Below, piece after piece: positions 30,281 through 61,179 of a DNA stretch of 64,000 nt; position 1 is the first letter of the stretch; every line of letters begins with the position of its first letter. The translations under genes and the position numbers were made by a program. Under the pieces are notes generated by a model. The model was given only the letters and a program-made list of their open reading frames with translations. It had not been told where the DNA came from and did no database searches. The stretch spans positions 2,376,796-2,440,795 of the forward strand of contig OZ242192.1 of the NCBI GenBank assembly GCA_965205955.1, read 5' to 3'. The stretch comes from Gammaproteobacteria bacterium (GTDB lineage: Bacteria > Pseudomonadota > Gammaproteobacteria > Eutrophobiales > Eutrophobiaceae).

Positions 30281-30782
30281 AATCTAATCAAGGGAATGCT
30301 GCACGAGTTGTCATACCGCAATGAAAATGTCATATTGATAACGTATCATCTTCTGCCCTTCGTTGCTCCATTGAAGTTGTTGACGTGTCGCTATCCACTT
30401 CAACCCACCGCACCTCATGGCCACCATGAGAGATATGCAGATTGCTATCCAACCATTCACGTATTTCCTATCGTTATGGTATCCGGCACAGGGGTGAGAA
30501 ACAGTCGTTCAATTCGTCGCCGCTTCTGTGCCTTCATAGTCGCAAAAACTCCGCGTGGATGAGTCCTGATAGCAGCCTCCTTTATCGTCATGTTCTTCTC
30601 CATAACACATTCGCAGATTTCAACACGCTTCATTTCTGCTATACTTACATTCTGTCCTCTTGTGGTATTCCATGCTTCATATTGAAGCACAACTAAGGGG
30701 GCTTTTTCACGTTGTCTTAATACGACATTTTCATTGTGGTATGACAGTTAACTACATAATTCCCAAATATTTTGTCATGATG

Positions 30783-31754
30783 CTAAGTATATTCTGATCT
30801 ATTGTTTTCACAGTGATTTTTCACGAACGTTAACCATGAATGATACCAGTACCATGTTTTGGCAACTTTTGTTCCAAATCCTTTTGATGGATTTTTTGCA
30901 TTTTCTTTTTGCCATAATTTCGTATGTTGATGTATTTTGAATTTGTTAAATCCATTTCTTTGCATTTCTTTGCAAATTTCACCTGGCAAATATTTCATCT
31001 TTTCCTTCTCTATGACATATTCCTTTTTAAGCCCTTTTGCTATATCAGAATCTGGCGAAATGAACTCAATCACTCTATCCGCTTGTCCTTTTCGATTAGC
31101 CGTTCTTAAGACAAATAAAACTCTGTATGAAAACCTACTATCATTGAAATATCCCTCCGACAAACCTTGATCAAAATCTTGAATATAAGAAGAGATATTT
31201 TGGGGCAAATCTTTGTAATCACGTAAGTCAGCGACTTGACCTTCGCTCAGAGAAGAAAATTGTAGGCTAAAGGACAGGTGTTTTTCGATGCCATCTTTCT
31301 TTGGAAATAATTTTTTAAGATATGTATTGTAATTCAAACAACAGGATTGAAAACGAGCATTTAAAAAATCATCGATTCTTGTTGTCATTCTATGTTCTAT
31401 TTCGTGTCTTAGCCCAATTAAAAATTTTAAATTTAATGTCGTAATTTTGTCAATTGGAGATTTTTCACTATCCAAGCATTTCTCCAATTCCCAGTATTTA
31501 TAGGCATTTTTTTTTGTAGTGGAAAATTTTCTCCGCCTTCCATTTATTTTAAAATATTTGTATTCTATATTCTTGTCATGATAATAGGCATGTAGCAAAT
31601 AAGTCCAAGCAATAATTGAAAGAACGATGAATGACTCTGATTTAAATTGCATATTTGGGTTGTTGAATATTTGAACGGCCGCCAGCATGCCCTCTTTTGA
31701 CTTGCGAAGCTGTTCATTCTTTATAGAGCCAAATTTTCTCGTTCTGCTAGCCAT
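30783..31754 (-). CDS. DUF3644-like protein, commonly found next to hsdS
   Basis: The N-terminus MLAAVQIFNNPNMQFKSESFIVLSIIAWTYLLHAYY fits the DUF3644 N-terminal pattern. The gene overlaps the hsdS stop by 8 bp. Confidence 0.5.
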   Translation of the reverse strand: MASRTRKFGSIKNEQLRKSKEGMLAAVQIFNNPNMQFKSESFIVLSIIAWTYLLHAYYHDKNIEYKYFKINGRRRKFSTTKKNAYKYWELEKCLDSEKSPIDKITTLNLKFLIGLRHEIEHRMTTRIDDFLNARFQSCCLNYNTYLKKLFPKKDGIEKHLSFSLQFSSLSEGQVADLRDYKDLPQNISSYIQDFDQGLSEGYFNDSRFSYRVLFVLRTANRKGQADRVIEFISPDSDIAKGLKKEYVIEKEKMKYLPGEICKEMQRNGFNKFKIHQHTKLWQKENAKNPSKGFGTKVAKTWYWYHSWLTFVKNHCENNRSEYT

Positions 31755-32961
31755 GATATGAAAATGGACTTATTCTCGCTTTTCCACTCATCAACTTCGG
31801 CAACAAAATATCGCGCAGTTTTTTGAGCGTGCGGATTTGAGATTTATTCTTCCGATTTTTATCAAAAACCGATTCTACAGTATCTTGAAATTTATAAACT
31901 AATTCATGCGGATACTTGGGAAAATCAATCGATACTAAATTAGTCTGATTTATTTTCGGTTGTACTGCCCCAGTAATGTATCTCTCAATATTTAATTTCA
32001 AAAGAAAGTGCCAGATAAAAAAGTTATCGTAAGGTTTTTTTGCTTTAAGCACATGGGTATGATTATTCACCCAAAACTTTCCACTAGTATATTGTAAAAC
32101 AGGATACCCTTCACCTGCCTTAACCGTCCCATCTTCGGCCATTAGAATGTATTCGCCTTCGAAAATATAGTCGTTTATGTAATCCATAACTTGAGCAGCT
32201 CCGTAGTATGGATACAATGAATCTCCATCCTTCATTTTTTGCCTTTCTATTTTGGAAAGCGGGATTCTTTTGCTGTCAAAAATCTCTACCACATCCCCTA
32301 GCTTTCCAAACTCCCACCCTTCATTCGCATCTTCCACAAACCACTTGCGAAACAATGCCTGTGCCATATCTTCAAGTGTTTTGTTCTGGCGGTGGAGCAG
32401 CTCTATTTTGTCGTCCAGCGATGATAACACTTCGGCAATGGCTTTTTGTTCGGGAAGTGGGGGGAGAAAAAATTTGTAATCTTTAATTGTTTTTGGTGAT
32501 GTGTGCTTTATTGATGTTCCACTTGCTGCGCCAACTATAAACCAGTGATATTCACCAGTACGCATTAGCCAATAAATAAAATTTCTATCAACCTCTTTTG
32601 ATTCAAATTGTAATAACCCTATCCGCTGATTGTGTAAATACATTTCATCGTTTTTATTATTTTTGGGAACTTTTGCTGAAAAACCAAGAGTGTCTCCTTG
32701 TTTGCTCAAATCAGTCATTGTTACAATAACATCACCTTCTTTCAGAATATAATCTTGTGGAATTTCACCTCTAAAATATTTTAACTTTGATGATTTGAAT
32801 CCTCCACCTATATGAAAATTTCCAGGTGTAACCAAAATATTGTTGTTTGTTTCATCTGTAATATATTTCCCCTTGAAAGCATAGCCGTGTTTTATATCAA
32901 CTAAATCCCCCAACCTAACCTCGCGCCACCCGTGCCGTTCTTTTTGCTCCATCCCGCTCAT
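31747..32961 (-). CDS. hsdS: type I restriction-modification specificity subunit HsdS, with two target-recognition domains
   Basis: Conserved central and C-terminal coiled-coil LPPLPEQKAIAEVLSSLDDKIELLHRQNKTLEDMAQALFRKWF, with two TRD-like halves; 404 aa. Confidence 0.85.
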   Translation of the reverse strand: MSGMEQKERHGWREVRLGDLVDIKHGYAFKGKYITDETNNNILVTPGNFHIGGGFKSSKLKYFRGEIPQDYILKEGDVIVTMTDLSKQGDTLGFSAKVPKNNKNDEMYLHNQRIGLLQFESKEVDRNFIYWLMRTGEYHWFIVGAASGTSIKHTSPKTIKDYKFFLPPLPEQKAIAEVLSSLDDKIELLHRQNKTLEDMAQALFRKWFVEDANEGWEFGKLGDVVEIFDSKRIPLSKIERQKMKDGDSLYPYYGAAQVMDYINDYIFEGEYILMAEDGTVKAGEGYPVLQYTSGKFWVNNHTHVLKAKKPYDNFFIWHFLLKLNIERYITGAVQPKINQTNLVSIDFPKYPHELVYKFQDTVESVFDKNRKNKSQIRTLKKLRDILLPKLMSGKARISPFSYHG

Positions 32962-33284
32962 TGCTCCGAATATATCTGCTCTTTCGTCAACAGTGTTTTC
33001 GCTTTCTCTTCGATGTGCCGTCTCATCGGCGGGTAATCTACAAAGTTGAACACCTGCACATCCACCTTGTATGGCAACGAACTCTCATCAAACAAAGTCC
33101 ACAAACGGTCGGTGGTCGCTCCATCGATGTCGCCGTAAAGCACCAAGTCAATATCGGAATAACTTTTGTAGTTTCCCGTTGCCCTTGAGCCGAACAAGGA
33201 TGCTTTTTCAATGCCGGGGCAATGTTCGCGGAGAATTTTTGCGATACCGCCAATTTGCCGTGCGCTCAATCCATGCGTGGACAT
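32958..33284 (-). CDS. mntA: nucleotidyltransferase (MNT-domain antitoxin of a HEPN/MNT pair)
   Basis: GSRATGNYKSYSDIDLVLYGD carries the GS...D.D polymerase-beta NTase motif; 108 aa. Confidence 0.8.
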   Translation of the reverse strand: MSTHGLSARQIGGIAKILREHCPGIEKASLFGSRATGNYKSYSDIDLVLYGDIDGATTDRLWTLFDESSLPYKVDVQVFNFVDYPPMRRHIEEKAKTLLTKEQIYSEQ

Positions 33285-49236: not shown

Positions 49237-51000
49237 GTGCCGTCAAAACCGTTTGATGATTTGATAGCGGAGTGTTCCCAGATTATCTATGACGGCTTCA
49301 TTCAGTATGATAATCAATTTCACCGCATCACCCGCCGCGCCAGAATCCGGTTTGAAAAGCGCGACTGGAAGGGGCATCAGCAGGATATAGTCGATCGGGT
49401 CGATCTGTATGAGCAATCAGTACGCCGCATAGTAATTCAACTGCGCCGCACCATGGGCGGACGCATCAATGATTATGATCTCTGGAATGAGATAAACACC
49501 TACTTTGGTGAACGGCTGATTGAAGTGCCGGATGCAAATTTTATCAAGACATTCTTTAATTCCACCACCCGCCGCATTTTCGGAACAGTGGGCATCGATC
49601 CGAAACTCGAGTTCATCGCCACCGATTCAATCGATGATCAGGAAATGGCCGCCTCATTAAATATCAGACGCTATCCCTACTGGGATTCGGTACAGCGCAT
49701 TTTTGAAACCATACTTGCGGATTTTTCATTTCGCAACGTTCCCTATAATGATCTGGGAAAGAATGCGGAGCACATTGCCGGGAAAATAAAATCTCATTTC
49801 AATACAGAACGGTCTTCGATAATCGGCATCCGCCGGTTTGAATTTGTTAATTCGTTCTTTTATCAGGCGGCGCGCGCCTATCTGGTCGGCAGAATTATGC
49901 TTTCCGATAACACTCTGCCGCTGGTTATCGCATTTAAAAATGAAGATGATGGAATTCATGTGGATGCCGTACTGCTGACCGAAAAGGAGGTGAGCATTGT
50001 ATTCGGCTACACGCGCTCTTATTATTTCGCCGATCCTACCTCGGTAATAGGCACGGTCTATTTCCTGCATTCGATATTGAAGGACAAGCCTGTCGATGAG
50101 CTCTATACCGTGCTGGGACGACTGCGTCAGGGCAAAACGGAACGGTATAGGATCTTTACCCGGCATATGCGTCAAAGCGATGAGCAGTTTGTGCATGCCG
50201 CGGGCGACAAAGGGCTGGTTATGATCGTATTTACATTTCCTTCCTACGATTTGGTATTCAAGGTCATACGCGATAAGTTTGGCCACCCGAAAAAGGTCTC
50301 ACGCAAAGAGGTAATCGAAAAATACAAATTGGTATCGCACCATGACCGCGCCGGGCGGTTGATAGATACCCAGGAATTTCGCAATCTTGAATATAAAATC
50401 GATCGCTTTTCGGATGAATTGCTGAATGAATTATTGTCCGAAGCCTCCAACACCGTTGAGATTGAAGGCAATAATCTGCTGCTGGGCCATGTTTATATAG
50501 AAAGACGGGTGCGCCCACTCAACCTTTATATCAATGAAATGAGCGATGACGATACCCAGCGGGCTATGATAGATTACGGGCAGACAATCAAGGACCTGGC
50601 TAAAACCAATATCTTCCCCGGCGATCTGCTGCTGAAAAATTTCGGCGTCACCAAGTATAACCGCGTTGTCTTCTACGACTATGATGAAGTTTCACTGGTC
50701 ACGGAATGCAATTTTCGCGATATTCCCGAGTCCGACAATATCGAGGATGAGATGCAGGAGGATTGCTGGTATTACGTCGGAGAAAACGATGTATTCCCGC
50801 AGGAGTTTATAAATTTTTTGGCGATGAACGATACACTGCAGGAGACTTTTATCAAATATCACAAAGATCTGCTCAGCACCCGGTACTGGCGCGATATAAA
50901 GGATAAACATTTAGCGGGAGAGGTATCGCCGGTCATCACGTATGCAAGTCCGGCGGCCTTGTTTCCGGCGCTGCCTGTAGAAAAAGATCAGTCCGATTAA
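49237..51000 (+). CDS. aceK: isocitrate dehydrogenase kinase/phosphatase
   Basis: 587 aa; N-terminal regulatory domain and C-terminal kinase domain typical of AceK. It lies immediately downstream of icd. Confidence 0.9.
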   Translation: MPSKPFDDLIAECSQIIYDGFIQYDNQFHRITRRARIRFEKRDWKGHQQDIVDRVDLYEQSVRRIVIQLRRTMGGRINDYDLWNEINTYFGERLIEVPDANFIKTFFNSTTRRIFGTVGIDPKLEFIATDSIDDQEMAASLNIRRYPYWDSVQRIFETILADFSFRNVPYNDLGKNAEHIAGKIKSHFNTERSSIIGIRRFEFVNSFFYQAARAYLVGRIMLSDNTLPLVIAFKNEDDGIHVDAVLLTEKEVSIVFGYTRSYYFADPTSVIGTVYFLHSILKDKPVDELYTVLGRLRQGKTERYRIFTRHMRQSDEQFVHAAGDKGLVMIVFTFPSYDLVFKVIRDKFGHPKKVSRKEVIEKYKLVSHHDRAGRLIDTQEFRNLEYKIDRFSDELLNELLSEASNTVEIEGNNLLLGHVYIERRVRPLNLYINEMSDDDTQRAMIDYGQTIKDLAKTNIFPGDLLLKNFGVTKYNRVVFYDYDEVSLVTECNFRDIPESDNIEDEMQEDCWYYVGENDVFPQEFINFLAMNDTLQETFIKYHKDLLSTRYWRDIKDKHLAGEVSPVITYASPAALFPALPVEKDQSD

Positions 51001-52376
51001 TCCCCGGCCGGATTATACCAGGCCAATTTTTCATGCAACCGAACCACCTCCCCGACAATAATCATGCTTGGCGGCTTTATTTGCCTGTTTCGCACCGTAT
51101 CCGGCAGCGTTTGCAGACTGCCTATATACACTTTTTGATTTAACATGGTTCCCTGCTCAATGATTGCGGCGGGCAGATCGGGAGACAGACCGCGGCGAAT
51201 CAATTCATAACTCAACTTTTCAATTCCATGCACACCCATGTAAATGGCAATAGTTTGCTGCGGCTGTACCATTGCATCCCAATTCAGGGATAAATTCTCA
51301 TCCTTCAGATGCCCGGTAACAAACAGGCATGACTGGGCAAAATCCCGGTGCGTCAACGGGATCCCCGCATAGCTTGCACAGCCGCTGGCCGCAGTAATTC
51401 CCGGCACTACCTGGAAGGATACGCCGGCCTCGGACAATAACGAGATTTCTTCGCCGCCACGCCCGAAAATAAACGGATCGCCGCCTTTCAGGCGCAACAC
51501 CCGCTTGCCCTGTTTGGCCAGATCCACCAATAATTGATTGATTTCATCCTGTGAAATGGTGTGCTGATCGTTCTTTTTTCCGACATATACACGCTCCGCA
51601 TCCTTGCGCACCAGATCAAGCACCCTTTTCGCCACCAGGCGATCATACAGGACAACATCGGCCTGCTGCATCAGGCGCAAGGCCCTGAAGGTCAGCAAAT
51701 CGGGATCGCCCGGCCCTCCTCCGACCAGATAGACCTCGCCGTGCCTTGCTATGGCATGATTATCATGCTCAAGATATTGTTCGAGCGTTCTAAGCGCCGC
51801 TTCACCCTGTCCGGCATACAGCATCTCTTCGATCGGCCCCTGTAATACTTCTTCCCAAAAGCGCCGCCGCTGCCGCATATCGGGAAAACGCTCGCGCACC
51901 GGTGTGCGAAACCGGGCAATCACCTTTGCCAATTCACCATACGAGGCGGGAATATAGGTTTCGAGACGCGCACGCAACAGGCGTGCGAGTATCGGTGATA
52001 CCCCGCCTGAAGACACCGCAATAAAGACCGGATCGCGATTGACGATGGAAGGCATGATAAAGGTGCAAAGTTCAGGGTTGTCCACCACGTTGACCGGTAT
52101 ATTTTCCGCCTGCGCCAGTTCGGAAACGCGACGATTAACCTGCTCATCATCGCTTGCCGCGATCACCATACAGTTACCGGCTATTAATTCCTCTGCGAAA
52201 TTAGATACTATGGTCTTGATCTGCTGCTGTTCGGAGAGTTGCCGGACGGCTTCATTGAAATCCGGCGACACCACAGTGACCTCCGCTCCAAATTCGAGCA
52301 ACTGCGTTATTTTGCGCAACGCGACCTCTCCGCCGCCGACTACCAGGCAGGGACGATGGGTAATATCGATGGATAT
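50997..52376 (-). CDS. cysG: siroheme synthase CysG; the start codon is uncertain and probably non-ATG
   Basis: C-terminal SUMT domain VVLYDRLV...[13 protein letters not shown]. The N-terminal Rossmann motif [27 protein letters not shown] lies upstream of the TTG at 52319. The frame is open back to a TGA at about 52392 with no ATG. The sequence ...[22 protein letters not shown] aligns to E. coli [21 protein letters not shown]. Confidence 0.85.
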
Positions 52377-52461
52377 AGGTAAATAAGCCAGTTTATTTAT
52401 TCAAAGCTGTATGAAATCGACTCAGACCGGTGCCGGATGATGATAGCCAGCTATATAGTTT

Positions 52462-53433
52462 TTATTCATTAATTTTTTCAAGTTTTTTCTTTTTAATAAA
52501 GAATGTATTAAATCCATATTTATTTATCCTGATCCGTAATGCTTTAAGGATGAAATTTACTGGAATTAAATCTCCAATATAATACCAATAAAACTTGTGC
52601 CCATATATTTTTTTACAAAAATCTATATAAAGTCTTTTATATTTTATTTGCCTTTTTCGATACTCTTTTATTCCAACACAACCTGGAGTATTAACTACTT
52701 CTTTTCTCCATAAAAATCTGTAAAGCCAGGGTTTATTCCTAACAAAATGTAAAAAAATAATTTTATTTTCAGGAAGATTACCTTTAAAAAAGTTATTCCA
52801 TTCTACTCCAAGACGATAAAAACTAAAAAGTCCTTTTATTCTTAAAAAGAAAAAAACTATTTCATCTGTTTCAAAATAAGCAACGTTCAACAAGTCTTTG
52901 TACAGGTTTATAAATTTTTCCTTAAACTTTTTCTTTGCCAAATTTTTATTGTTGTACACTACAACCCCTGAATTCATCCAGAATTCTTCCAAATCTTCTT
53001 CTTTCATACCCAATGTCTTCAGGAATTTTGTATATTCTGCTCTATGTACTTTCCTCAAAGCAAGCTCTTCTACTTCTTCTATTACATTCATAGGTACTTT
53101 ACCTATGCAAAAAATATCTCCATCAAGAACAATTGAATAGGAAAAGCCTTTTTTATAGAAGGCTTCCGGAATGGCACAACTCCAAAAACATTCATTTGGC
53201 CAGAGAAACTTTCTGGTATCCCCAAAAATATTTTCCAGATCAATTTTCAAAACTCCTAAATTGTATTCTTCAATAACTCTTTTGTATTTGTCACTGATAT
53301 TTCCGCAGACAAAATACTCAAAGTTTTTATTTTCCTCGTTCTTCTCCCTTACAGATAAAAGTGTAATTATTGCCTTATAGATATACCTGTCATTCGTTGA
53401 AATTACACAAACAGCAACTTTGTCTCTTGACAT
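52462..53433 (-). CDS. GT-A fold glycosyltransferase, family 8-like; paralogue 1 of 4
   Basis: MSRDKVAVCVISTNDRYIYKAIITLLSV...SIVLDGDIFC (DxD)...NSGVVVYNNKNL; about 28% GC. Confidence 0.55.
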   Translation of the reverse strand: MSRDKVAVCVISTNDRYIYKAIITLLSVREKNEENKNFEYFVCGNISDKYKRVIEEYNLGVLKIDLENIFGDTRKFLWPNECFWSCAIPEAFYKKGFSYSIVLDGDIFCIGKVPMNVIEEVEELALRKVHRAEYTKFLKTLGMKEEDLEEFWMNSGVVVYNNKNLAKKKFKEKFINLYKDLLNVAYFETDEIVFFFLRIKGLFSFYRLGVEWNNFFKGNLPENKIIFLHFVRNKPWLYRFLWRKEVVNTPGCVGIKEYRKRQIKYKRLYIDFCKKIYGHKFYWYYIGDLIPVNFILKALRIRINKYGFNTFFIKKKKLEKINE

Positions 53434-53624
53434 CGCACACTCCTTATTTTCAATGTTATTATCTGCCTCATTAACAAAAACTCCATTCACGCCAGCCCCG
53501 CAGCCATAGAAAAGGACGATTGGCCATATCTATGGATATAGATAAATAAGCCAGTTTATTTATTCGACGCTATAGTAAATCAACTCAGACCGGCGCCGGA
53601 TGATGATAGCCAGCTATATAGTTT

Positions 53625-54602
53625 TTATTCATTAATTTTTTCAAGTTTTTTCTTTTTAATAAAGAATGTATTAAATCCATATTTATTTATCCTGATCCGT
53701 AATGCTTTAAGGATGAAATTTACTGGAGTTAAATCTCCAATATAATACCAATAAAACTTGTGCTCGTATGTTTTTTTACAAAAATCTATATAAAGTATTT
53801 TATATTTGATTCTTCTTTTTTGATACTCCTGTATTCCAACACAACCTGGAGTATTAATTTCTTCTTTTCTCCATAAAAATCTGTAGAGCCAGGGTTTATA
53901 ATGTAAATGTAAAAAAATAATCTTATTTTCAGGAAGATGACCTTTAAAAAAGTTATTCCATTCTACTCCAAGACGATAAAAACTAAAAAGTCCTTTTATT
54001 CTTAAAAAGAAAAAAACTATTTCATCTTCTTCAAAATAGGAAATTTTCGATAAATCCCTGTACAGGTTTATAAATTTTTCCTTAAACTTTTTCTTTGCCA
54101 AATTTTTATTGTTGTACACTACAACTCCTGAATTCATCCAGAATTCTTCCAAATCTTCTTCTTTCATACCCAATGTCTTCAAGAGTTTTGTATATCCTGT
54201 ATTTTTTGCTCTACGTGCTTTCTGCAAAGCAAGCTCTTCTACTTCTTCTATTACATTCATAGGTACTTTACCTATGCAAAAAATATCTCCATCAAGAACA
54301 ATTGAATAGGCAAAACCTTTTTTATAGAAGGCTTCCGGAATGGCACAACTCCAAAAACATTCATTTGGCAATATAAATTCTTTGGAATCCCCAAAAATAT
54401 TTTTCAGATCAATTTTCAAAACTCCTAAATTGTATTCTTCAATAACTCTTTTGTATTTGTCACTGATATTTCCGCAGACAAAATACTCAAAGTTTTTATT
54501 TTCCTCGTTCTTCTCTCTTACAGACAGCAGCGTAATAATTGCCTTATAGACATAACTGTCATTCGTTGAAATTACACAAACAGCAACTTTATCTTTTGAC
54601 AT
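53625..54602 (-). CDS. GT8-like glycosyltransferase, paralogue 2 of 4
   Basis: Nearly identical to paralogue 1 over the first roughly 200 aa and in C-terminal type. Confidence 0.55.
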   Translation of the reverse strand: MSKDKVAVCVISTNDSYVYKAIITLLSVREKNEENKNFEYFVCGNISDKYKRVIEEYNLGVLKIDLKNIFGDSKEFILPNECFWSCAIPEAFYKKGFAYSIVLDGDIFCIGKVPMNVIEEVEELALQKARRAKNTGYTKLLKTLGMKEEDLEEFWMNSGVVVYNNKNLAKKKFKEKFINLYRDLSKISYFEEDEIVFFFLRIKGLFSFYRLGVEWNNFFKGHLPENKIIFLHLHYKPWLYRFLWRKEEINTPGCVGIQEYQKRRIKYKILYIDFCKKTYEHKFYWYYIGDLTPVNFILKALRIRINKYGFNTFFIKKKKLEKINE

Positions 54603-54756
54603 CTTACATTTCTCCTTTTCAATTTTGTTATCTGCTTCATTAAAAAAACTCCATTCGCGCCAACCCCGTAGCCACAGGACGATTGGCAATATCTTAGTCC
54701 GGTTTATTTATGCGACGCTATAGTAGTAACCTGAGCTGTCGCCGATTATGCCCACC

Positions 54757-55707
54757 TTACGATAAAAAATCTCTCACTATTTTTTTTAGCGAGAAAAAGT
54801 CAAGTAATCTTACCAAAGATTGTCTTATGATTTTCTTTATTGGTATTACATCTCCGATGTAATACCAATAAAACTTATGCCCATATATTTTTTTGCAAAA
54901 ATTAATATAAAATTCTCTATATTTTATCCTTCTTTTTTTATTTATCTCCACCCCAATATCATTTGAATCAGGCAGTTTCCCCCATAAAAATCTGTAACGC
55001 CAAGGCTTATAATGTAAATGTAGAAAAATAAGCTCACTGTCAGGAAGGATGGTGTCCAATGCACTGTTCCATTTTAGTCTAAGATCATAAAAATTAAAAA
55101 GTCCTTTCATTCTTAAAAAGAAAAAAACCGTTTCATCTACTTCAAAATAGGAAATTTTCGATAAATCCCTGTACAGGTTTATAAATTCTTCCTTAAATTT
55201 TTTCCTTGTTAAATTTTTATTATTAAAAATTATAGTTCCTGAACACATCCAACATTCTTCAATATCTTTTTGTCTAGAATTAAATTTCTTTATAATTTTT
55301 CGCAATGTAAGCTCGTTTGTTCTTTTCGCCAAAGCAAGCTCTTCTACTTCTTCTATTACATTCATAGGCACTTTACCTATGCAAAAAATATCTCCATCAA
55401 GAACAATTGAATAGGGAAAACCTTTTTTATAGAAGGCTTCCGGAATGGCACAACTCCAAAAACATTCATTTGGCAATATAAATCCTTTGGAACTTCCAAA
55501 AATATTTTTCAGATCAATTTTCAAAACTCCTAAATTGTATTCTTCAATAACTCTTTTGTATTTGTCACTGATATTTCCACAAACAAAATACTCAAAGTTT
55601 TTATTTTCCTCGTTCTTCTCCCTTACAGACAGAAGTGCAATAATTGCCTTATAAACATAACTGTCATTCGTTGAAATTACACAAACAGCAACTTTATCTG
55701 TTGACAT
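54757..55707 (-). CDS. GT8-like glycosyltransferase, paralogue 3 of 4, with an alternative C-terminal module
   Basis: The N-terminal roughly 150 aa match paralogues 1 and 2; the C-terminal half is of a second type (…CWMCSGTIIFNNKNLTRKKF…IPIKKIIRQSLVRLLDFFSLKKIVRDFLS). An A8 tract lies near the 3' end. Confidence 0.55.
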   Translation of the reverse strand: MSTDKVAVCVISTNDSYVYKAIIALLSVREKNEENKNFEYFVCGNISDKYKRVIEEYNLGVLKIDLKNIFGSSKGFILPNECFWSCAIPEAFYKKGFPYSIVLDGDIFCIGKVPMNVIEEVEELALAKRTNELTLRKIIKKFNSRQKDIEECWMCSGTIIFNNKNLTRKKFKEEFINLYRDLSKISYFEVDETVFFFLRMKGLFNFYDLRLKWNSALDTILPDSELIFLHLHYKPWRYRFLWGKLPDSNDIGVEINKKRRIKYREFYINFCKKIYGHKFYWYYIGDVIPIKKIIRQSLVRLLDFFSLKKIVRDFLS

Positions 55708-55862
55708 CTTACATCTCTCCTTTTCAATTTTGTTATCTGCTTCATTAAAAAAACTCCATTCGCGCCAACCCCGTAGCCACAGGACGATTGGCAATATCTT
55801 AGTCCGGTTTATTTATGCGACGCTATAGTAGTAACCTGAGCTGTCGCCGATTATGTCCCACC

Positions 55863-56816
55863 TTACGATAAAAAATCTCTCACTATTTTTTTTAGCGAGA
55901 AAAAGTCAAGTAATCTTACCAAAGATTTTTTTATGATTTTCTTTATTGGTATTACATCGGAGATGTAATACCAATAAAACTTATGCCCATATATTTTTTT
56001 GCAAAAATTAATATAAAATTCTCTATATTTTATTCTTCTTTTTTTATGTATCTCCACCCCAATATCATTTGAATCAGGCAATTTCTCCCATAAAAATCTG
56101 TAATGCCAAGGCTTAGAAGTGATATGCAAAAAAATAAGATCACTGTCAGGAAGGATGGTGTTCAATGGACCGTTCCATTTTACTCTAAGATCATAAAAAT
56201 TAAAAAGTCCTTTTATTCTTAAAAAGAAAAAAACCGTTTCATCTGCTTCAAAATAGGAAATTTTCGATAAATCCCTGTACAGGTTTATAAATTCTTCCTT
56301 AAATTTTTTCCTTGTTAAATTTTTATTATTAAAAATTATAGTTCCTGAACTCATCCAGCATTCTTCAATATCTTTTTGTCTAAAATTAAATTTCTTCATA
56401 ATTTTTCGCAGAAATGCCTGCCCTTTTGTTCCTATCCTCAAAGCAAGCTCTTCTACTTCTTCTATTACATTCATAGGCACTTTACCTATGCAAAAAATAT
56501 CTCCATCAAGAACAATTGAATAGGAAAAACCTTTTTTATAGAAGGCTTCCGGAATGGCACAACTCCAAAAACATTCATTTGGCCATATAAATCCTTTGGA
56601 ACCTCCAAAAATATTTTTCAGATCAATTTTCAAAACTCCTAAATTGTATTCTTCAATAACTCTTTTATATTTGTCACTGATATTTCCGCAGACAAAATAT
56701 TCAAAGTTTTTATTTTCCTCGTTCTTCTCTCTTACGGACAGAAGTGTAATGATTGCCTTATAAACATAACTGTCATTCGTTGAAATTACACAAACAGCAA
56801 CTTTATCTTTTGACAT
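55863..56816 (-). CDS. GT8-like glycosyltransferase, paralogue 4 of 4, same C-terminal type as paralogue 3
   Basis: Same type as paralogue 3. Its start region abuts the addA stop. Confidence 0.55.
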   Translation of the reverse strand: MSKDKVAVCVISTNDSYVYKAIITLLSVREKNEENKNFEYFVCGNISDKYKRVIEEYNLGVLKIDLKNIFGGSKGFIWPNECFWSCAIPEAFYKKGFSYSIVLDGDIFCIGKVPMNVIEEVEELALRIGTKGQAFLRKIMKKFNFRQKDIEECWMSSGTIIFNNKNLTRKKFKEEFINLYRDLSKISYFEADETVFFFLRIKGLFNFYDLRVKWNGPLNTILPDSDLIFLHITSKPWHYRFLWEKLPDSNDIGVEIHKKRRIKYREFYINFCKKIYGHKFYWYYISDVIPIKKIIKKSLVRLLDFFSLKKIVRDFLS

Positions 56817-56853
56817 CTTACATTTCTTCTTTTCAATTTTGTTATCTTCCTTA

Positions 56854-59800
56854 TTAACCAAAACTCCATTCGCGCCAGCCTTGCAACAAAGGGAAGTATA
56901 ACCCAAGCCTGATTTGCCTGCTATCCATTGCCTGTATCAGGCCGGCATACTTTTCCAGTTGGCCCCGGTAGCGTTCCTGTTCACGATTAAGAAAAGTCTC
57001 CACATCCGCTCCTTCGTGCCGGCTGGTTTTATAGTCAATGATCCAGCGTACGCCGTCTTCATCGACAAAAGTGCGATCGATGATTATATTAATCAGCTTG
57101 CCTTCATATAATCCGCTCAACGGATATTCATTATTTTGCTGTTCATGGTCACTGAGTATCCACCGGCCACGCTCATCCTGTACTATTTTATTCAGGGCTT
57201 CGGCAATCTGGACGTCGGCCCAGGCTATTTCATTCTCCCGAATGCCCTGCTGTTTCAGCATTGCCACAAAACGTTCTTTGTTTTGCCCAATTCTTGCCTC
57301 GTTCCACGTATCCACTCCCTCTTCCGCAATCTGCCTGAGGCACTGATGCACTACTAAGCCAACATGCTTTATTGTCTCGCCCGCCCATTGGTATTCAACC
57401 AAGTCATACTCTTGTTCGCTATCCCCCATCTGCTGTTTATTCGCCCACTCTAAGGGTTTATCAGGCAATGGGCTCCGCCAGTCCGGATGAATACGATACA
57501 GTGCATTGTTTTTCATCGGGATGCCCGTCGCCATACCGGCTTCGATTTGCTCCGGGAGCTCCACTTGATAGTGTTGCCGCAATACCGGCCAGAGGTGGCT
57601 CAAGAGCGAGTGCGCTGCCGCTGCGCAAACCATGCCGCCCTCGTTACCCTGTTTACATTCGGCATGACCAATCAAGTGCAGGGATTTTGCGGCACGGGTA
57701 CCGGCAACATAAAGCAGCCGCGTTTCTTCATGATGCTTTTTTCGTTTTTCTATGCTGTCAATGTAGTTGTAGATAGGCGCGGTTTCTTCTCCGGATTCCT
57801 TTATCGGCGCCAATAGCAGATCGTTTCCCTGTTGTTGCCCATTCGACCTCAGCATCCACGCCAATAATTCAGCTTGTCCGCGTTTTTGGCCGCGACCCAG
57901 TCCCGGGACGATGACATGATCGAATTCCAGCCCCTTGGCCTTATGAATGGTCATGATCTGCAAGGCATCGCCGGCCTGTTTGTCGGGGGCGGCATATAAT
58001 TTCTGTACTTCGTCCATAAACCGCTGCGGGTTGTTCAGTTCGCCTCCACGGTCAAACTGTTCCAGCAATTCAAGATAGGTGTTGATGTTCTCCAGGTCGT
58101 GTTCCGCCGCCAGCGTAGCCGGCCCTCCGAGCCGCATCCATAATGTTTCGATGATTTTCCTCAGTGGTTGCCGCTGCTGATTGTCGAAGGCTTCCCGGAA
58201 ACATTCGATCAATTTTTGCAATCTGAGGGCAGCCTGCTTGTCCAGTTGTTGTTTCGGGGCATTTATAGCCTGCCATACCGTGCGCCTGTTCTCACGATTC
58301 ACCAGAGTGTGCATATCCTGCAGCGACAGACCGCACCAGGGCGCCCGCAATACTGCCAGCCAGGCGGTGCGATCGGCCAAATGTATATACGCACGGGTCA
58401 GGGCCAATATATCCTGTATCGCCGGGCGTTGGCCAAGCGCCTCGATCTCTATCGCCCGAAACGGCAGGTCTTGCCTCCTCAATAACGGAACCAGTTCATT
58501 TAAATGCGAACGACTGCGCACCAGTATTGCAATGCTGGCATCAGGGTCTTGCTGTCTGATAGTTTCCAGGATATTCCGCACCTGCTCGGCTTCTTCTGCA
58601 CCGTCGCCGGTAAACAGCGGATAACAGTTGACCGCCCCGCCATCCGGATTATCCTGCGCCATGGACGGCATATAGCGGACCGCCCCGGTGAGGGCATCAT
58701 CCTGATCGGGCAGTATTTCAGCAAAGCTCGTATTGACCCAATCAACCACACCCGGCAAAGAGCGGAAATTGACCGATAGCTGCAACGGCGCTAGTTCTAT
58801 CTGCCCCAGATGCTGCTGGTGGTATGTATTGATAAACAGCCCTACCTCGGCCTGGCGAAAGCGATAGATGGACTGCATAGGATCTCCCACCAGGAATAAA
58901 CTGCGGCCCTCGTCCTGCGTCCAACCTTCTGTCAACTGGCGAATCAATCGATATTGATTAATGGAAATATCCTGAAACTCATCTACCAGTATATGTTTGA
59001 TTTGATAGTCCAGATGCAGCGCCAGATCGGTCGGGGCATCCTCTTTACCCAGCGCGCAAATCGCCGCCTGGGCCATGCCGATGTAATCAATCTGGCTGTG
59101 TTCTGCGAAACACAGGCGCAACTGCGCTTCGGCAACTACCAGGCCTATGCACAGGGCGTTCACCGTTTTCCATTCCTCATCATCATAGGATGCGGCCGGC
59201 AGTATCTTTATTTCGGCAAGCTGGGAGCGCAATTCGTCGTTTGGCTTTAACTGGTTTATCAGGTCTGCAATGCGTTCTTTCATATCAGCGCGTTCCCGAC
59301 TCTCCGGCGTCTTGCCTTTCGGAGCAGGAAATCCATTGCGCTTGTCAAACGACTTTCTCCAGTCATCTTTATCGGTCAATAATAATTTGACAATGCCGGC
59401 CCATTGCTCCAGGTCTTCGATGCGGTCTCCCGGAATAGTTTCAATGGAGGCACAATTTACAATGCTGTGCGTTCCATTTTCCCGCTGCAGATTACCGGCG
59501 GCGAAACGCAGGATACCGCAAAGTTCGGCTTCGACTTCGCGCGGGAAAAGCCTTGCAAGCGCGGCAAGCTGCTCTTCGATGATATTTTGCAATGACTGCT
59601 CCAGAGCGGAACGATCCGGAACCTGCGCCACATGAGGCAGCCACTGATCGCGTTTCTTCAACATATCCACGATCAATCTTTTAATGCGGGGCAGATCGTT
59701 ATCGAGATGCAGCAGCAGGCAGGCGATCGCGTCTGCATAAGACCCCCCATTTTCAAGCTCCGCCAATGTATTGATCGCCGCCTGTTCGTATAAGGGTTCG

Positions 59801-60255
59801 GCGTCATCGACAATCTCCGGTTGCGCACCGAGAGATGACGGCACCGGCATTTGCCCGGATAACCAGGCGCAGAGTGCGTCTATGGTTTGTATGCGTAAAC
59901 GAGCGGGGTTGGCGCGTATATCCCAGTCGTGTTTTGCATCGTGTTTCAATACGGCCTCAGCCAGTTCCCAGGTTTGCCGCCGATGTTCATCCTGCGGCCG
60001 CTGCCCGGTTCTGACAGCCTCAATTGCCGCCAGAATACGGCCTTGCATTTCGGCGGCGGCCTTGCGGGTAAAGGTTACTGCGATAATCTCTTCCGGCGAA
60101 TCGACCAGAGTCAGTAGCCGCAGGTAACGCTGGGTCAACAATTCGGTTTTGCCCGAGCCCGCCGGCGCCTGAATGATGAATGACTGTCCGGGATCAATCG
60201 CCTGCAGGCGCTGTTTGTAATCGATAGGCTGCATTTTTGCTTGCTGAAACTTCAA
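56854..60255 (-). CDS. addA: ATP-dependent helicase/nuclease subunit A (AddA/RexA-like: UvrD-type SF1 helicase plus a C-terminal RecB-family nuclease)
   Basis: N-terminal FIIQAPAGSGKTELLTQRYL (Walker A), helicase motifs, and C-terminal nuclease IIDRTFVDEDGVRWIIDYKTS; 1133 aa. Confidence 0.8.
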   Translation of the reverse strand: MKFQQAKMQPIDYKQRLQAIDPGQSFIIQAPAGSGKTELLTQRYLRLLTLVDSPEEIIAVTFTRKAAAEMQGRILAAIEAVRTGQRPQDEHRRQTWELAEAVLKHDAKHDWDIRANPARLRIQTIDALCAWLSGQMPVPSSLGAQPEIVDDAEPLYEQAAINTLAELENGGSYADAIACLLLHLDNDLPRIKRLIVDMLKKRDQWLPHVAQVPDRSALEQSLQNIIEEQLAALARLFPREVEAELCGILRFAAGNLQRENGTHSIVNCASIETIPGDRIEDLEQWAGIVKLLLTDKDDWRKSFDKRNGFPAPKGKTPESRERADMKERIADLINQLKPNDELRSQLAEIKILPAASYDDEEWKTVNALCIGLVVAEAQLRLCFAEHSQIDYIGMAQAAICALGKEDAPTDLALHLDYQIKHILVDEFQDISINQYRLIRQLTEGWTQDEGRSLFLVGDPMQSIYRFRQAEVGLFINTYHQQHLGQIELAPLQLSVNFRSLPGVVDWVNTSFAEILPDQDDALTGAVRYMPSMAQDNPDGGAVNCYPLFTGDGAEEAEQVRNILETIRQQDPDASIAILVRSRSHLNELVPLLRRQDLPFRAIEIEALGQRPAIQDILALTRAYIHLADRTAWLAVLRAPWCGLSLQDMHTLVNRENRRTVWQAINAPKQQLDKQAALRLQKLIECFREAFDNQQRQPLRKIIETLWMRLGGPATLAAEHDLENINTYLELLEQFDRGGELNNPQRFMDEVQKLYAAPDKQAGDALQIMTIHKAKGLEFDHVIVPGLGRGQKRGQAELLAWMLRSNGQQQGNDLLLAPIKESGEETAPIYNYIDSIEKRKKHHEETRLLYVAGTRAAKSLHLIGHAECKQGNEGGMVCAAAAHSLLSHLWPVLRQHYQVELPEQIEAGMATGIPMKNNALYRIHPDWRSPLPDKPLEWANKQQMGDSEQEYDLVEYQWAGETIKHVGLVVHQCLRQIAEEGVDTWNEARIGQNKERFVAMLKQQGIRENEIAWADVQIAEALNKIVQDERGRWILSDHEQQNNEYPLSGLYEGKLINIIIDRTFVDEDGVRWIIDYKTSRHEGADVETFLNREQERYRGQLEKYAGLIQAMDSRQIRLGLYFPLLQGWREWSFG

Positions 60256-60342: not shown

Positions 60343-61179
60343 TCACTTGCTGCAATCTATCCGCAATCGGCTTCTTAGGTCATCTTGAGCCTTGAAAATT
60401 TTTGATATTAGATAAGAGGAAAAATAATCAAAATAATTTTTATAATTTAAATTCTCTCTTTTATATAGATTTTTCATAAATCTGTGAGCCTCTAATCTTG
60501 TGATCCACCATAGTCCGCCGGTTTTTTTTAACTTTGACGATATGCTATCTTCAGCATGACAATGGTAATTATAACTTTCTTCGAGAATCAAAAAATTTTC
60601 TTTCCGAAAAATTCGGGAATAAACATTAATTCTGAAATCTATTGCTAATAAGCTGTAATGTAAAGAAAAAATATTTTCATATAAACATTTGGAAAAAAAT
60701 TCCCTTTTCATGCTGATAGAGCTGGTAGGAATAATAGTAGGCCATATATTTTTTTGATACTTTCGTTTTAATTTAAACAATTTTTTTTCATCTTTTTGCA
60801 AAATTAAAACCGGTAAATCAAAAATTACTTCTTTATCATATTGTGCATATTTTTCTTTTAAGCATTGAAGTTTATTGTCTGAAAAAAAATCATCTCCGTC
60901 CAACAAACAAATCACTTCTCCTTTTGATATGTTAAAAGCCTCTATTGTTAAATCTATTTGATTTATAATCGGATAATTACTTATTCTTTCTTTTTTTATA
61001 ATTTTTAAAAAATTTGAATACCTGCTTAAAATATCTTCCGTATTGTCTGTTGACATATTATCCGCAAGAATAATTTCAAAATCTCTCTCCTTTTGACTCA
61101 AACAAGATTTAATACAACGCTCTATGTATTTCCCTTTATTAAAACTGGTAATAATTATGGAAAAATATATTTTATTCAT
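60343..61179 (-). CDS. family 2 glycosyltransferase (GT2), AT-rich, inserted between addB and addA
   Basis: FSIIITSFNKGKYIERCIKSCLSQKERDFEIILADNMSTDNTEDIL and the DxD motif LLDGDDFF; about 27% GC against about 52% flanks. Confidence 0.8.
   Translation of the reverse strand: MNKIYFSIIITSFNKGKYIERCIKSCLSQKERDFEIILADNMSTDNTEDILSRYSNFLKIIKKERISNYPIINQIDLTIEAFNISKGEVICLLDGDDFFSDNKLQCLKEKYAQYDKEVIFDLPVLILQKDEKKLFKLKRKYQKNIWPTIIPTSSISMKREFFSKCLYENIFSLHYSLLAIDFRINVYSRIFRKENFLILEESYNYHCHAEDSISSKLKKTGGLWWITRLEAHRFMKNLYKRENLNYKNYFDYFSSYLISKIFKAQDDLRSRLRIDCSK

What the first reader, a model, noticed from the sequence alone, without database searches (positions are those of the whole stretch)
52365..56906. 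AT-rich GT8-like glycosyltransferase gene amplified to four tandem mosaic copies, with fragments of both flanking genes co-amplified at every junction
There are four paralogues at about 28% GC. Their N-terminal halves are nearly identical, and their C-terminal halves fall into two types (copies 1 and 2 against copies 3 and 4). This indicates amplification followed by gene conversion or cassette exchange. Each inter-copy junction contains a fragment of the addA 3' end (…GWREWSF) fused to a fragment of the cysG 5' end. So the original duplication breakpoints lay inside those two housekeeping genes. Copies 3 and 4 carry an A8 homopolymer near the 3' end, which could cause slipped-strand variation of the last roughly 8 aa. 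Tandem variable GT arrays are typical of phase-variable surface-glycan loci; finding one wedged between addA and cysG is unusual.
Basis: seen in the sequence. Interest (0 to 1): 0.6.

Follow-up and report, generated by a model that had tools for sequence, protein, structure and literature searches.

The report
Four-copy tandem glycosyltransferase gene array
A foreign, AT-rich sugar-transferase gene inserted between two housekeeping genes of an uncultured marine bacterium, then duplicated in place to 3-4 copies with one shared half and two kinds of other half; this is a clear example of a familiar way bacteria diversify surface-sugar enzymes, not a new kind of system.

Summary
Window 52351-56892 (minus strand) holds four head-to-tail units of 1.10-1.17 kb. 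Each carries an intact 316-325 aa gene at 28.5-29% GC, between addA and cysG (both 53% GC). Every inter-copy junction is a cysG 5' fragment joined to an addA 3' fragment, so one founding duplication had its ends inside those two genes. The proteins are a rare, divergent branch of glycosyltransferase family 8 (GT8). The AlphaFold model has pLDDT 87. The best structural matches are LARGE1, glycogenin, WbbM and LgtC. The DxD and H..KPW motifs are invariant. The leader and first 125 codons are 90-97% identical between copies (dS 0.12-0.22). The remainder falls into two types (dS 0.6-0.74), which indicates gene conversion or unequal crossing-over. Four other assemblies of the same species (about 99% identical flanks) carry 4, 4, 3 and 3 copies with patchwork alleles, so the array is real, old and still recombining. 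The closest other genome lacks it. The most likely function is a set of membrane-associated enzymes that share a sugar donor and differ in acceptor, acting on a surface glycan; this is inferred, not shown. Slipped-strand phase variation is not established: one A7 variant was seen among nine A8 tracts. I rate it a new member of a known kind, of moderate interest.

The parts
56854..60234 (-). addA (AddA/UvrD-type helicase-nuclease, 1126 aa from the ATG at 60234). Its last ~8-13 codons (56864-56892) form the left end of the duplicated unit.
   Evidence: Pfam UvrD-helicase, UvrD_C and PDDEXK_1. 69% identical to L008 addA. 3' end aligned to the junction fragments.
55863..56816 (-). GT8-like gene copy A (317 aa; A/B-type C-half).
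   Evidence: AlphaFold model pLDDT 87. Foldseek matches to GT8 structures.
55754..55816 (-). Junction A-B: cysG 5' fragment (55782-55816, with a 15-nt deletion) joined to addA 3' fragment (55754-55781).
   Evidence: Alignments.
54757..55707 (-). GT8-like gene copy B (316 aa; A/B-type C-half).
   Evidence: Identical protein P0002 occurs in two other assemblies.
54649..54711 (-). Junction B-C: cysG 5' fragment joined to addA 3' fragment. It matches junction A-B almost exactly.
   Evidence: (family D6).
53625..54602 (-). GT8-like gene copy C (325 aa; C/D-type C-half).
53481..53563 (-). Junction C-D: the most complete cysG 5' fragment (53514-53563; upstream ATAAATAAA, the CTG codon and about 12 further codons) joined to addA 3' fragment (53481-53513).
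52462..53433 (-). GT8-like gene copy D (323 aa; C/D-type C-half).
50997..52391 (-). cysG (sirohaem synthase, 464 codons counted from the CTG at 52391-52389). The right end of the duplicated unit lies after codon ~13, at 52351.
   Evidence: Pfam TP_methylase, NAD_binding_7 and CysG_dimeriser. L008 cysG starts ATG GCC TAT CTA CCG at the equivalent codon. CTG is present in all five strains.
55876..55902 (-). Terminator-like hairpin at the 3' end of copy A. The A8 tract (55886-55893) is its loop, and T6 follows. The same element occurs in copy B at 54770-54796 (A8 at 54780-54787).
   Evidence: RNA fold -11.7 kcal/mol, z = -2.2. A-tract lengths.
60343..61179 (-). A second AT-rich (26.5% GC) glycosyltransferase gene, family GT2, inserted between addB and addA on the same strand. 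Possibly part of the same glycan pathway.
   Evidence: Pfam Glycos_transf_2, E 1e-21. Absent from L008, where about 35 nt separate the addB stop from the likely addA start.

Best explanation
A single foreign gene of about 29% GC, encoding a divergent GT8 retaining glycosyltransferase, replaced the addA-cysG intergenic region in an ancestor of this uncultured marine gammaproteobacterial species. The insertion clipped addA's last two codons and cysG's ATG.

An illegitimate (possibly microhomology-mediated) recombination then joined cysG codon ~13 to addA's last ~8-13 codons. This produced a tandem duplication whose junction still carries both gene fragments.

The two copies diverged, with dS about 0.6-0.7 in the 3' block. 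The leader and first 125 codons were kept alike by gene conversion or unequal crossing-over. Later unequal cross-overs raised the number to 3-4 copies (dS about 0.09-0.15 within a type). Strains still exchange patches between copies.

Functionally (inferred): all copies are expressed enzymes attached peripherally to the inner membrane by a basic, aromatic-rich helical tail, as in LgtC. They share the part that carries the DxD motif and most donor contacts. They differ in the part that shapes the acceptor site and the tail. Together with the neighbouring GT2 they would add alpha-linked sugars at different positions of a surface glycan (LPS/LOS core or a polysaccharide). Copy number and mosaic alleles would then give strain-level glycan diversity.
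For: Shown:
- Four units and their junction anatomy.
- The closest genome, L008, has aceK-cysG-addA-addB synteny but no GT8 and no GT2. Its addA 3' end (CTACGGGGCTGGCGTGAATGGAG) matches the junction fossils.
- Five strains with 98.8-99.7% identical flanks carry 4, 4, 4, 3 and 3 copies. Equivalent copies are mostly 97-100% identical by segment in the 4-copy strains, and they are patchworks in the 3-copy strains.
- Between types, dS is 0.12-0.22 in the N-half and 0.60-0.74 in the C-half. Omega is 0.10-0.26 in the N-half and 0.48-0.57 in the C-half.
- The non-coding leaders of B and C are nearly identical although their C-halves differ in type.
- GT8 assignment: sub-threshold PF01501 hits; profile hits at E 1e-19 to 1e-26 to proteins that pass the PF01501 cut-off; invariant D104, D106, H231, P236, W237 in 68 sequences; model pLDDT 87; Foldseek top hits LARGE1, glycogenin, WbbM, LgtC, UGGT, XXYLT1 and GlyE; motifs aligned to LgtC YLDIDVL and SHYCGPAKPW.
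- The tail has net charge +11 to +14, is 19-21% aromatic and has no transmembrane segment. LgtC's helical C terminus is expected to bind the membrane (PMC4202792).
- More distant homologues lie in glycan clusters: P0007 among GT2, GT10 and GtrA-like genes, and P0012 beside a Wzx-like gene. Some relatives are fused to polysaccharide pyruvyl transferase.

Inferred: the order of events, the same-donor/different-acceptor reading, and the surface-glycan target.
Against: - No activity, donor, acceptor or expression data exist.
- The array is not inside a recognisable LPS, LOS or capsule cluster; its only glycan-related neighbour is the GT2.
- The profile of the close family alone finds no GT8 structure by sequence, and no NCBIfam model matches. 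The GT8 link is therefore transitive and structural.
- The NG86 dS estimates are rough for 29% GC genes.
- The candidate microhomology (CCCTGC) is reconstructed from L008 and the present cysG. It is not visible in today's junctions.
- One homologue (L007) sits in a defence-type neighbourhood.
Confidence: 0.72

Rival explanations
1. The enzymes are effectors that glycosylate proteins of a eukaryotic host, like the Legionella Lgt/SetA or NleB/SseK glycosyltransferases. The array would then diversify host targets rather than the bacterium's own surface.
For: The genes are AT-rich single-gene islands in three unrelated genomes, from assemblies whose ENA accession numbers lie close together. The C-half evolves fast, with omega 0.5-0.8 and about 1 in some close pairs. 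The lineage is uncultured, and its nearest relatives are MAGs with UUID-style isolate names. From memory only, that naming suggests cobiont genomes from host-organism sequencing projects.
Against: The listed top 50 structural matches are glycogenin, LgtC, LARGE1, WbbM, UGGT, XXYLT1 and GlyE, with no toxin or effector glycosyltransferase among them. More distant homologues sit in polysaccharide clusters. The basic aromatic tail resembles LgtC's membrane anchor. No secretion-system genes or signals were seen near the array.
Confidence: 0.1
2. The gene belongs to a duplication-prone mobile cassette. It would spread between co-habiting bacteria and generate or need flanking duplications, for example as circles popped out of arrays that re-integrate through the co-amplified host homology. 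On this view the array is a by-product of mobility rather than of selection on glycans.
For: In all three genomic contexts the gene is about 27-29% GC in hosts of 50-60% GC, and it is accompanied by duplicated host sequence. The window has cysG/addA fragments. L006 and L044 have a 551-bp direct repeat of a CoA-transferase 3' end on both sides. L007 has two tandem units. In L006, 17 of the 19 coding differences between the two repeat copies are synonymous.
Against: No integrase, transposase, terminal inverted repeats or tRNA lie at the array. No relatives were found in phage, plasmid or viral collections. The window's junction order is what plain tandem duplication predicts. The homology carried in the window's junctions (about 25-50 nt) is too short for efficient homologous integration. 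The synonymous bias in L006 is equally explained by allelic replacement of the intact gene between strains. Three contexts are a small sample.
Confidence: 0.1
3. The array is an assembly artefact: an expansion or mis-join of one AT-rich gene.
For: Tandem repeats of about 1.1 kb with a block of roughly 300-450 nt at 96% identity could be mis-assembled from short reads.
Against: The copies differ by 4-9% in the conserved block and by 26-40% elsewhere, so they can be told apart. Four other assemblies, three on contigs of 0.48-2.6 Mb, reproduce the same order of copies with copy-specific substitutions.
Confidence: 0.02
4. The enzymes serve phage defence directly, for example by modifying DNA or a defence substrate, rather than surface glycans.
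For: The array flanks addAB. The same gap in L008 holds an orphan DNA methylase. The L007 homologue lies beside SNF2/PLD, Fic and Eco57I-type genes.
Against: There is no PADLOC match. From memory, the known DNA glucosyltransferases belong to other families and a different fold (GT-B). Homologues lie in polysaccharide clusters.
Confidence: 0.05

Closest known systems
LgtC of Neisseria meningitidis (GT8 alpha-1,4-galactosyltransferase of lipooligosaccharide; PDB 1G9R/1GA8)
   Same: Similar size (311 vs 316-325 aa). GT-A fold. The profile aligns over nearly the full length (E 5e-12). The DxD and H..KPW motifs align to LgtC D103/D105/H244. The C terminus is helical, basic and aromatic-rich, as expected for membrane binding.
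   Different: Only 13-14% sequence identity in the structural alignment. The close family alone does not find LgtC by sequence. There is no repeat tract of the kind that, from memory, switches lgtC on and off. The array is not in a lipooligosaccharide locus.
Neisseria lgt locus (adjacent glycosyltransferase genes whose number differs between strains)
   Same: Adjacent glycosyltransferase genes, with gene number differing between strains. PMC2192810 reports five lgt genes in most gonococci and only two in strain 15253, with lgtA subject to phase variation. That the lgt genes include paralogous pairs which recombine into hybrids is recalled from memory, not tested.
   Different: Here all copies derive from one gene, and the junctions carry fragments of the flanking housekeeping genes. 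Variation is by recombination and copy number, with no demonstrated homopolymer switching.
GT8 paralogues of enterobacterial LPS outer-core (waa) clusters, WaaO/WaaR/WaaJ/WaaT (recalled from memory, not tested here)
   Same: Several adjacent GT8 retaining hexosyltransferases that act one after another on the same glycan.
   Different: Those genes lie in a dedicated core-biosynthesis operon and are old, well-diverged paralogues without a homogenised half. This array lies between addA and cysG and has a near-identical 5' block.
Tandem segmental duplication and amplification in bacterial genomes
   Same: Head-to-tail units, one novel junction type that joins the distal end to the proximal end, and copy-number change by unequal recombination.
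   Different: From general knowledge, most amplifications studied in the laboratory are recent and unstable. This one is old (dS up to 0.7 between copies), is present in all five strains examined and has diverged in function-relevant parts.

Membership tests
Glycosyltransferase family 8 (CAZy GT8 / Pfam PF01501) | GT-A fold closest to solved GT8 structures | tested here: met
   AlphaFold model pLDDT 87, pTM 0.86. Foldseek probability 1.00 to LARGE1, glycogenin-1/2, LgtC, XXYLT1 and GlyE, with TM 0.5-0.7.
Glycosyltransferase family 8 (CAZy GT8 / Pfam PF01501) | DxD motif that binds the metal and the nucleotide sugar | tested here: met
   D104-G-D106 is invariant in 68 aligned relatives. It aligns with LgtC YLDIDVL, and D103/D105 are the LgtC residues near the donor.
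Glycosyltransferase family 8 (CAZy GT8 / Pfam PF01501) | C-terminal His followed by the K-P-W motif | tested here: met
   H231, P236 and W237 are invariant and K235 is nearly invariant. The motif aligns with LgtC SHYCGPAKPW, which contains H244.
Glycosyltransferase family 8 (CAZy GT8 / Pfam PF01501) | Score above the Pfam gathering threshold | tested here: not met
   The scores are 23.4 and 19.6 bits for two copies against a cut-off of 24.3, and the other two copies give no hit. Intermediate homologues found with the family profile do pass, at 26.6-44.5 bits. Membership therefore rests on transitive and structural evidence: a divergent branch.
Glycosyltransferase family 8 (CAZy GT8 / Pfam PF01501) | Retaining transfer of a sugar from a nucleotide sugar | not testable with these tools
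   This needs enzyme assays.
Tandem segmental duplication | Head-to-tail units with a novel junction that joins the distal end of the unit to its proximal end | tested here: met
   In all three junctions a cysG 5' fragment is followed by an addA 3' fragment, with one shared breakpoint (...CAATCGTCC|T...).
Tandem segmental duplication | Copy-number differences between close relatives, and absence from an outgroup | tested here: met
   Five strains carry 4, 4, 4, 3 and 3 copies. The array is absent from L008 and from 185,579 GTDB species representatives.
Tandem segmental duplication | Microhomology at the founding breakpoint | tested here: inconclusive
   CCCTGC is shared by cysG (CGTCCCTGCC) and by the L008-type addA (CCCCTGCTAC). 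The present junction sequences have since drifted.
Gene conversion / concerted evolution between paralogues | Synonymous and non-coding divergence much lower in one block than in the rest of the same genes | tested here: met
   Between types, dS is 0.12-0.22 against 0.60-0.74. The leaders of B and C are nearly identical. Alleles in strains L004 and L005 are patchworks.
Phase-variable contingency locus (slipped-strand switching) | A repeat tract in the promoter or 5' coding region whose length switches expression | tested here: not met
   Only A7/T7 runs, which are unremarkable in DNA of this AT content, and one A8 located 8 codons before the stop. There is no tract in the leader or the first codons.
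Phase-variable contingency locus (slipped-strand switching) | Tract-length polymorphism between or within strains | tested here: inconclusive
   One of the nine A/B-type tails is A7 (L004_2), which gives ...LKK*. Split or truncated ferrochelatase genes in three of the loci (L001, L003, L005) suggest indel errors in those assemblies. Read-level data are needed.
LPS/LOS core or polysaccharide biosynthesis locus | Location among other glycan-biosynthesis genes | tested here: not met
   The neighbours are addB, addA, cysG, aceK and icd, and only one GT2 is nearby. More distant homologues P0007 and P0012 do lie in such clusters.

The most novel reading that the evidence does not exclude
This rare GT8 branch is a cassette that travels between co-habiting bacteria and propagates through the duplications it is embedded in. 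Tandem units carrying bits of host genes would pop out as circles and re-insert by homology in related strains. That would explain why all three known genomic contexts combine an island of about 28% GC with duplicated host flanks, and why two of the three show a conserved 5' half and a divergent 3' half (the third, L006/L044, has only one copy).
Probability: 0.1. Interest if true: 0.65.

Novelty: new member of a known kind. Interest (0 to 1): 0.35.

Why it matters
The locus records how a horizontally acquired gene becomes a small gene family. The junction fossils fix the founding breakpoints to within a few bases. The outgroup genome gives the state before insertion. Five strains show later copy-number change and patchwork conversion.

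The split into a homogenised donor-side half and two diverged acceptor-side halves gives a testable case of specificity evolving inside a GT-A enzyme. The family is very rare: 6 clusters among 5.8 billion proteins, and 8 representatives at E below 1e-30 among 1.84 billion. It has no characterised member.

It does not open a new category. Tandem, recombining glycosyltransferase paralogues are well known in surface-glycan genetics.

Tried and rejected
- Direct family assignment failed. Pfam hits are below threshold. NCBIfam and PADLOC give no match. The PDB sequence search with the close-family profile found only a spurious E 0.14 hit.
- The first structure prediction, from 8 sequences, was unusable (pLDDT 47). 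It was replaced by a 68-sequence alignment.
- Searches for relatives found nothing in GTDB genomes, in JGI metagenomes by protein pattern or by an exact 31-mer, in IMG/VR, or in phage and plasmid records.
- A paper search for the assembly accessions found nothing, so the habitat stays unknown.
- No terminal inverted repeats or mobile-element genes were found at the unit ends.
- The 3' flank of the C/D type shows no structure better than shuffled sequence.
- The promoter scan was uninformative in this AT-rich DNA: 35 sites against 25 expected.
- I considered a long target-site duplication and rejected it, because the fragment order at the junctions is cysG then addA, not addA then cysG.
- I considered silent donor cassettes and rejected them, because every copy keeps its Shine-Dalgarno sequence, an open frame and omega below 1 in the N-half.
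- Exact-sequence look-ups of the window's copy A and of P0158 were not on record.

Full report
**What is in the sequence.** On the minus strand, the region between addA (56854-60234) and cysG (50997-52391) holds four head-to-tail units of 1105-1169 nt. The units align with 84% mean column identity. Each unit has one intact ORF preceded by a Shine-Dalgarno-like AAGGAG (AAGAAG in copy A). The ORFs are A 55863-56816 (317 aa), B 54757-55707 (316 aa), C 53625-54602 (325 aa) and D 52462-53433 (323 aa). They have 28.5-29.1% GC, with GC3 of 25-26%. addA and cysG have 53% GC and the whole window 48.6%.

Residues 1-125 are 90-97% identical between all pairs. Residues 126 to the end are 86% identical within a type (A/B, C/D) and 48-52% identical between types. 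The switch is abrupt. It falls after ...EEVEELAL, at about column 487 of alignment A1.

**Junctions.** All three inter-copy junctions have the same build. The 3' flank of the upstream copy comes first. Next comes a copy of the cysG start region: ATAAATAAAC[T/C]GG... up to ...CAATCGTCC, which is the start-codon position plus about 12 codons. Then comes a copy of the addA end...GCT[A/G]CGGGG[C/T]TGGCG[C/T]GAATGGAG, which encodes ..L R G W R E W S. The AT-rich leader of the next copy follows. In the A-B and B-C junctions the cysG piece has a 15-nt deletion, and these two junctions are almost identical. The C-D junction is the most complete.

The order (cysG piece, then addA piece) and the single shared breakpoint are what one founding tandem duplication predicts. 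That duplication would have had its left end about 8-13 codons before the addA stop and its right end after cysG codon ~13 (window 52351). This order is not what a target-site duplication would give.

**Outgroup.** The window's flanking genes are 98.8-99.7% identical to four ENA assemblies. The closest GTDB genome is L008 (OZ241847.1), a MAG labelled Gammaproteobacteria, with AceK 81-82%, ICDH 83%, CysG 82% and AddA 69% identical. L008 keeps the order icd-aceK-cysG-...-addA-addB. It has no GT8 and no GT2. Its cysG-addA gap holds an N6_N4 DNA methylase gene on the other strand, and about 35 nt separate the addB stop from the likely addA start.

L008 shows where the foreign DNA begins and ends. 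addA homology stops after GAATGGAG: L008 continues CCCGTAA, while the window continues TTTTGGTTAA. cysG homology starts at TGGC of the first codons: L008 has ATAATGGCCTAT, the window AAACTGGCTTAT. The insertion therefore supplied addA's last two codons and stop, and it turned the cysG ATG into CTG.

The addA fossils in the junctions (CTACGGGG[C/T]TGG) match L008 (CTACGGGGCTGG) better than they match today's addA end (TTGCAAGGCTGG). They therefore look like older states of the gene end. A six-base match, CCCTGC, between cysG (CGTCCCTGCC) and the L008-type addA (CCCCTGCTAC) lies at the inferred breakpoint. This is a candidate microhomology, offered as an inference only.

**Reality of the array, and strain variation.** Four other assemblies carry the locus:
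- ERZ25069324 contig_2 (1.72 Mb): 4 copies.
- ERZ25069316 contig_1 (2.63 Mb): 4 copies.
- ERZ25069323 contig_2 (0.48 Mb): 3 copies.
- ERZ25069326 ctg76364 (40 kb): 3 copies.

Cluster members also point to a 2.57 Mb NCBI contig. In the 4-copy strains, copies at equivalent positions are mostly 97-100% identical by segment. Paralogues differ by 4-9% in the 5' block and by 26-40% in the rest. The copies can therefore be told apart, and assembly collapse or expansion is not a credible explanation.

The 3-copy strains share one A/B-type copy that is a patchwork of segments resembling copies 1, 2 and 3. L004 copy 2 has a C-type body with an A/B-type tail. L004 copy 3 has a copy-3-like 5' part and a copy-4-like 3' part. 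The array is thus still recombining at the strain level, while the housekeeping flanks differ by only about 1% and have no indels.

**Conversion against constraint.** Between the two types, Nei-Gojobori dS is 0.12-0.22 in codons 1-125 and 0.60-0.74 in the rest. Omega is 0.10-0.26 in the first part and 0.48-0.57 in the second. Within types, dS is about 0.09-0.15 in both halves. The non-coding leaders of B (A/B type) and C (C/D type) are almost identical.

Lower synonymous and non-coding divergence cannot come from protein constraint alone. The 5' block has a more recent common ancestor than the 3' block, through gene conversion or unequal crossing-over. Unequal crossing-over within the shared block would also explain why copies with the same C-half type sit next to each other.

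Rough order of events by dS: founding duplication (about 0.6-0.7), secondary duplications (about 0.1-0.15), strain divergence (about 0.01-0.06). These estimates are approximate for genes this AT-rich.

**What the protein is.** Direct Pfam hits to Glyco_transf_8 are below threshold: 23.4 and 19.6 bits against a cut-off of 24.3, with two copies giving no hit. The family is very small. It has six 90%-identity clusters among 5.8 billion proteins, all from ENA assemblies. In an exhaustive profile search of 1.84 billion representatives it gave 213 hits at E up to 0.001, and only 8 below 1e-30.

Of the eight more distant hits checked (E 1e-19 to 1e-26), six pass the GT8 gathering score over the whole Pfam model. 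Two of the eight are fused to polysaccharide pyruvyl transferase. In a 68-sequence alignment the invariant columns are M1, D104, D106, H231, P236 and W237, with K235 nearly invariant. With that alignment AlphaFold gives pLDDT 87 and pTM 0.86.

The best Foldseek matches in the PDB are GT8 enzymes or members of closely similar GT-A families: LARGE1, glycogenin-1/2, WbbM, LgtC, UGGT, XXYLT1 and GlyE. The profile aligns with LgtC nearly end to end (E 5e-12). It places the DxD on LgtC YLDIDVL and the His on SHYCGPAKPW. These are the D103/D105/H244 residues described near the donor in LgtC (PMC4202792).

The last ~65-75 residues are predicted helical, carry a net charge of +11 to +14, are 19-21% aromatic and contain no transmembrane segment. 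This resembles LgtC's C terminus, which is expected to sit on the membrane. I conclude that these are divergent GT8 retaining glycosyltransferases. Donor and acceptor are unknown.

**Likely role (inference).** The conserved block (residues 1-125) holds the nucleotide-binding part and the DxD. The variable block holds the second half of the catalytic domain and the tail. That a GT-A enzyme's C-terminal part contributes most to acceptor binding is general knowledge about the fold; I did not test it here. The simplest reading is several enzymes with one donor and different acceptors or linkages.

Context supports a surface glycan. P0007 (39% identical) lies among GT2, GT10 and GtrA-like genes in a uniformly AT-rich (about 26% GC) stretch. 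P0012 lies beside a Wzx-like gene. In the window a second AT-rich gene, a GT2 (60343-61179, 26.5% GC), was inserted between addB and addA on the same strand. From memory, low GC is usual for surface-polysaccharide genes. All 18 copies in five strains are open, and the N-half is under purifying selection, so these are working genes and not silent cassettes.

**Phase variation.** A8 tracts occur only in A/B-type tails. Each forms the loop of a 10-bp terminator-like hairpin followed by T6 (-11.7 kcal/mol, z -2.2). One of nine such tails (L004 copy 2) has A7, which ends the protein at ...LKK and removes the last 7 residues. The other eight are A8. Some of these assemblies have split or shortened ferrochelatase genes, so an indel error cannot be excluded. 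No tract lies in the leader or the first codons. The variation actually seen here is recombinational (copy number and mosaics), not slipped-strand switching.

**The same gene elsewhere.**
- P0005 (56% identical) sits in a roughly 60% GC genome as a 28% GC island. It is flanked on both sides by a 551-bp direct repeat: the last 176 codons of a CoA-transferase gene, once as a fragment and once as part of the intact gene. The arrangement is conserved in a second strain. Seventeen of the 19 coding differences between the two repeats are synonymous. That fits import from a relative, or later allelic replacement of the intact gene; I cannot tell which.
- P0006 (48% identical) sits in a roughly 50% GC genome next to SNF2/PLD, Fic and Eco57I-type genes. 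It forms two tandem units of about 1345 nt. The upstream region and 5' half are 68-86% identical and the 3' half 45-67% identical. The first copy is frameshifted.

All three known contexts therefore show local duplication that includes host sequence. Two of the three show the conserved-5'/divergent-3' pattern. This could reflect repeated selection for diversification, or a property of how the gene moves. Three cases do not decide it. No relatives were found in phage, plasmid or viral collections, and no mobile-element features lie at the array.

**Verdict.** This is a new, rare GT8 branch in a tandem paralogue array made by segmental duplication and reshaped by conversion. It is a well-documented example of a known process. 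It is of moderate interest, mainly as a clean evolutionary record and as a candidate for specificity studies.

Noticed in passing
window 52389-52391 (minus strand), cysG start: cysG has CTG where the closest relative has ATG (L008: ATG GCC TAT CTA CCG; window: CTG GCT TAT TTA CCT). All five strains share it, and the N-terminal Rossmann motif downstream is conserved. ORF callers therefore truncate the gene to 425-440 aa. The foreign insertion appears to have destroyed the ATG, so translation probably starts at a rare near-cognate codon.
   Followed up: partly
window 60343-61179 (minus strand): A second AT-rich (26.5% GC) single-gene island, a GT2 glycosyltransferase, lies between addB and addA on the same strand. 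It is absent from L008, where about 35 nt separate the addB stop from the likely addA start. The addBA pair is thus interleaved with five foreign glycosyltransferase genes.
   Followed up: partly
window 56881-56892 (minus strand), addA 3' end: Today's addA end (CCTTTGTTGCAA) differs at 5 of 12 bases, all towards A/T, from both the junction fossils and L008 (CCCCTGCTACGG). It changes R to Q. The cause of this local burst of change next to the insertion is unexplained.
   Followed up: no
L008 13219-14457: In the closest genome the addA-cysG gap holds an N6_N4 DNA methylase gene on the opposite strand. The gap seems to be a variable spot in this lineage.
   Followed up: partly
L006 9414-9964 and 11358-11906; L044 5432-5964: The GT homologue P0005 is flanked by a 551-bp direct repeat of the 3' end of a CoA-transferase gene (96% identical). 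In L006, 17 of the 19 coding differences are synonymous, which is unexpected for a dead fragment drifting in place.
   Followed up: partly
L007 8441-11190: There are two tandem units of the GT homologue P0006, with the same conserved-5'/divergent-3' gradient. The first copy is frameshifted. The neighbours are SNF2/PLD helicase, Fic and Eco57I-type genes.
   Followed up: partly
window 29000-33000: Another AT-rich island (33-38% GC) holds a type I restriction specificity subunit (HsdS) and a DUF3644 protein next to HsdM. Bro-N, AAA/DUF4143 and NERD-UvrD genes are nearby. It looks like a defence-type island unrelated to the GT array.
   Followed up: partly
L044 9665-10409; L007 14681-15192: L044 has three tandem 74-aa ORFs. 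L007 has 203-nt tandem repeats between the SNF2 and Fic genes. Neither was examined.
   Followed up: no
L001/L003 ~19074-20030; L005 13071-14157: The ferrochelatase gene is shortened (318 aa) or split (242 + 121 aa) in some assemblies, but is 361 aa in others. This suggests indel errors or pseudogenes, and it is a reason for caution about single-base homopolymer differences.
   Followed up: no
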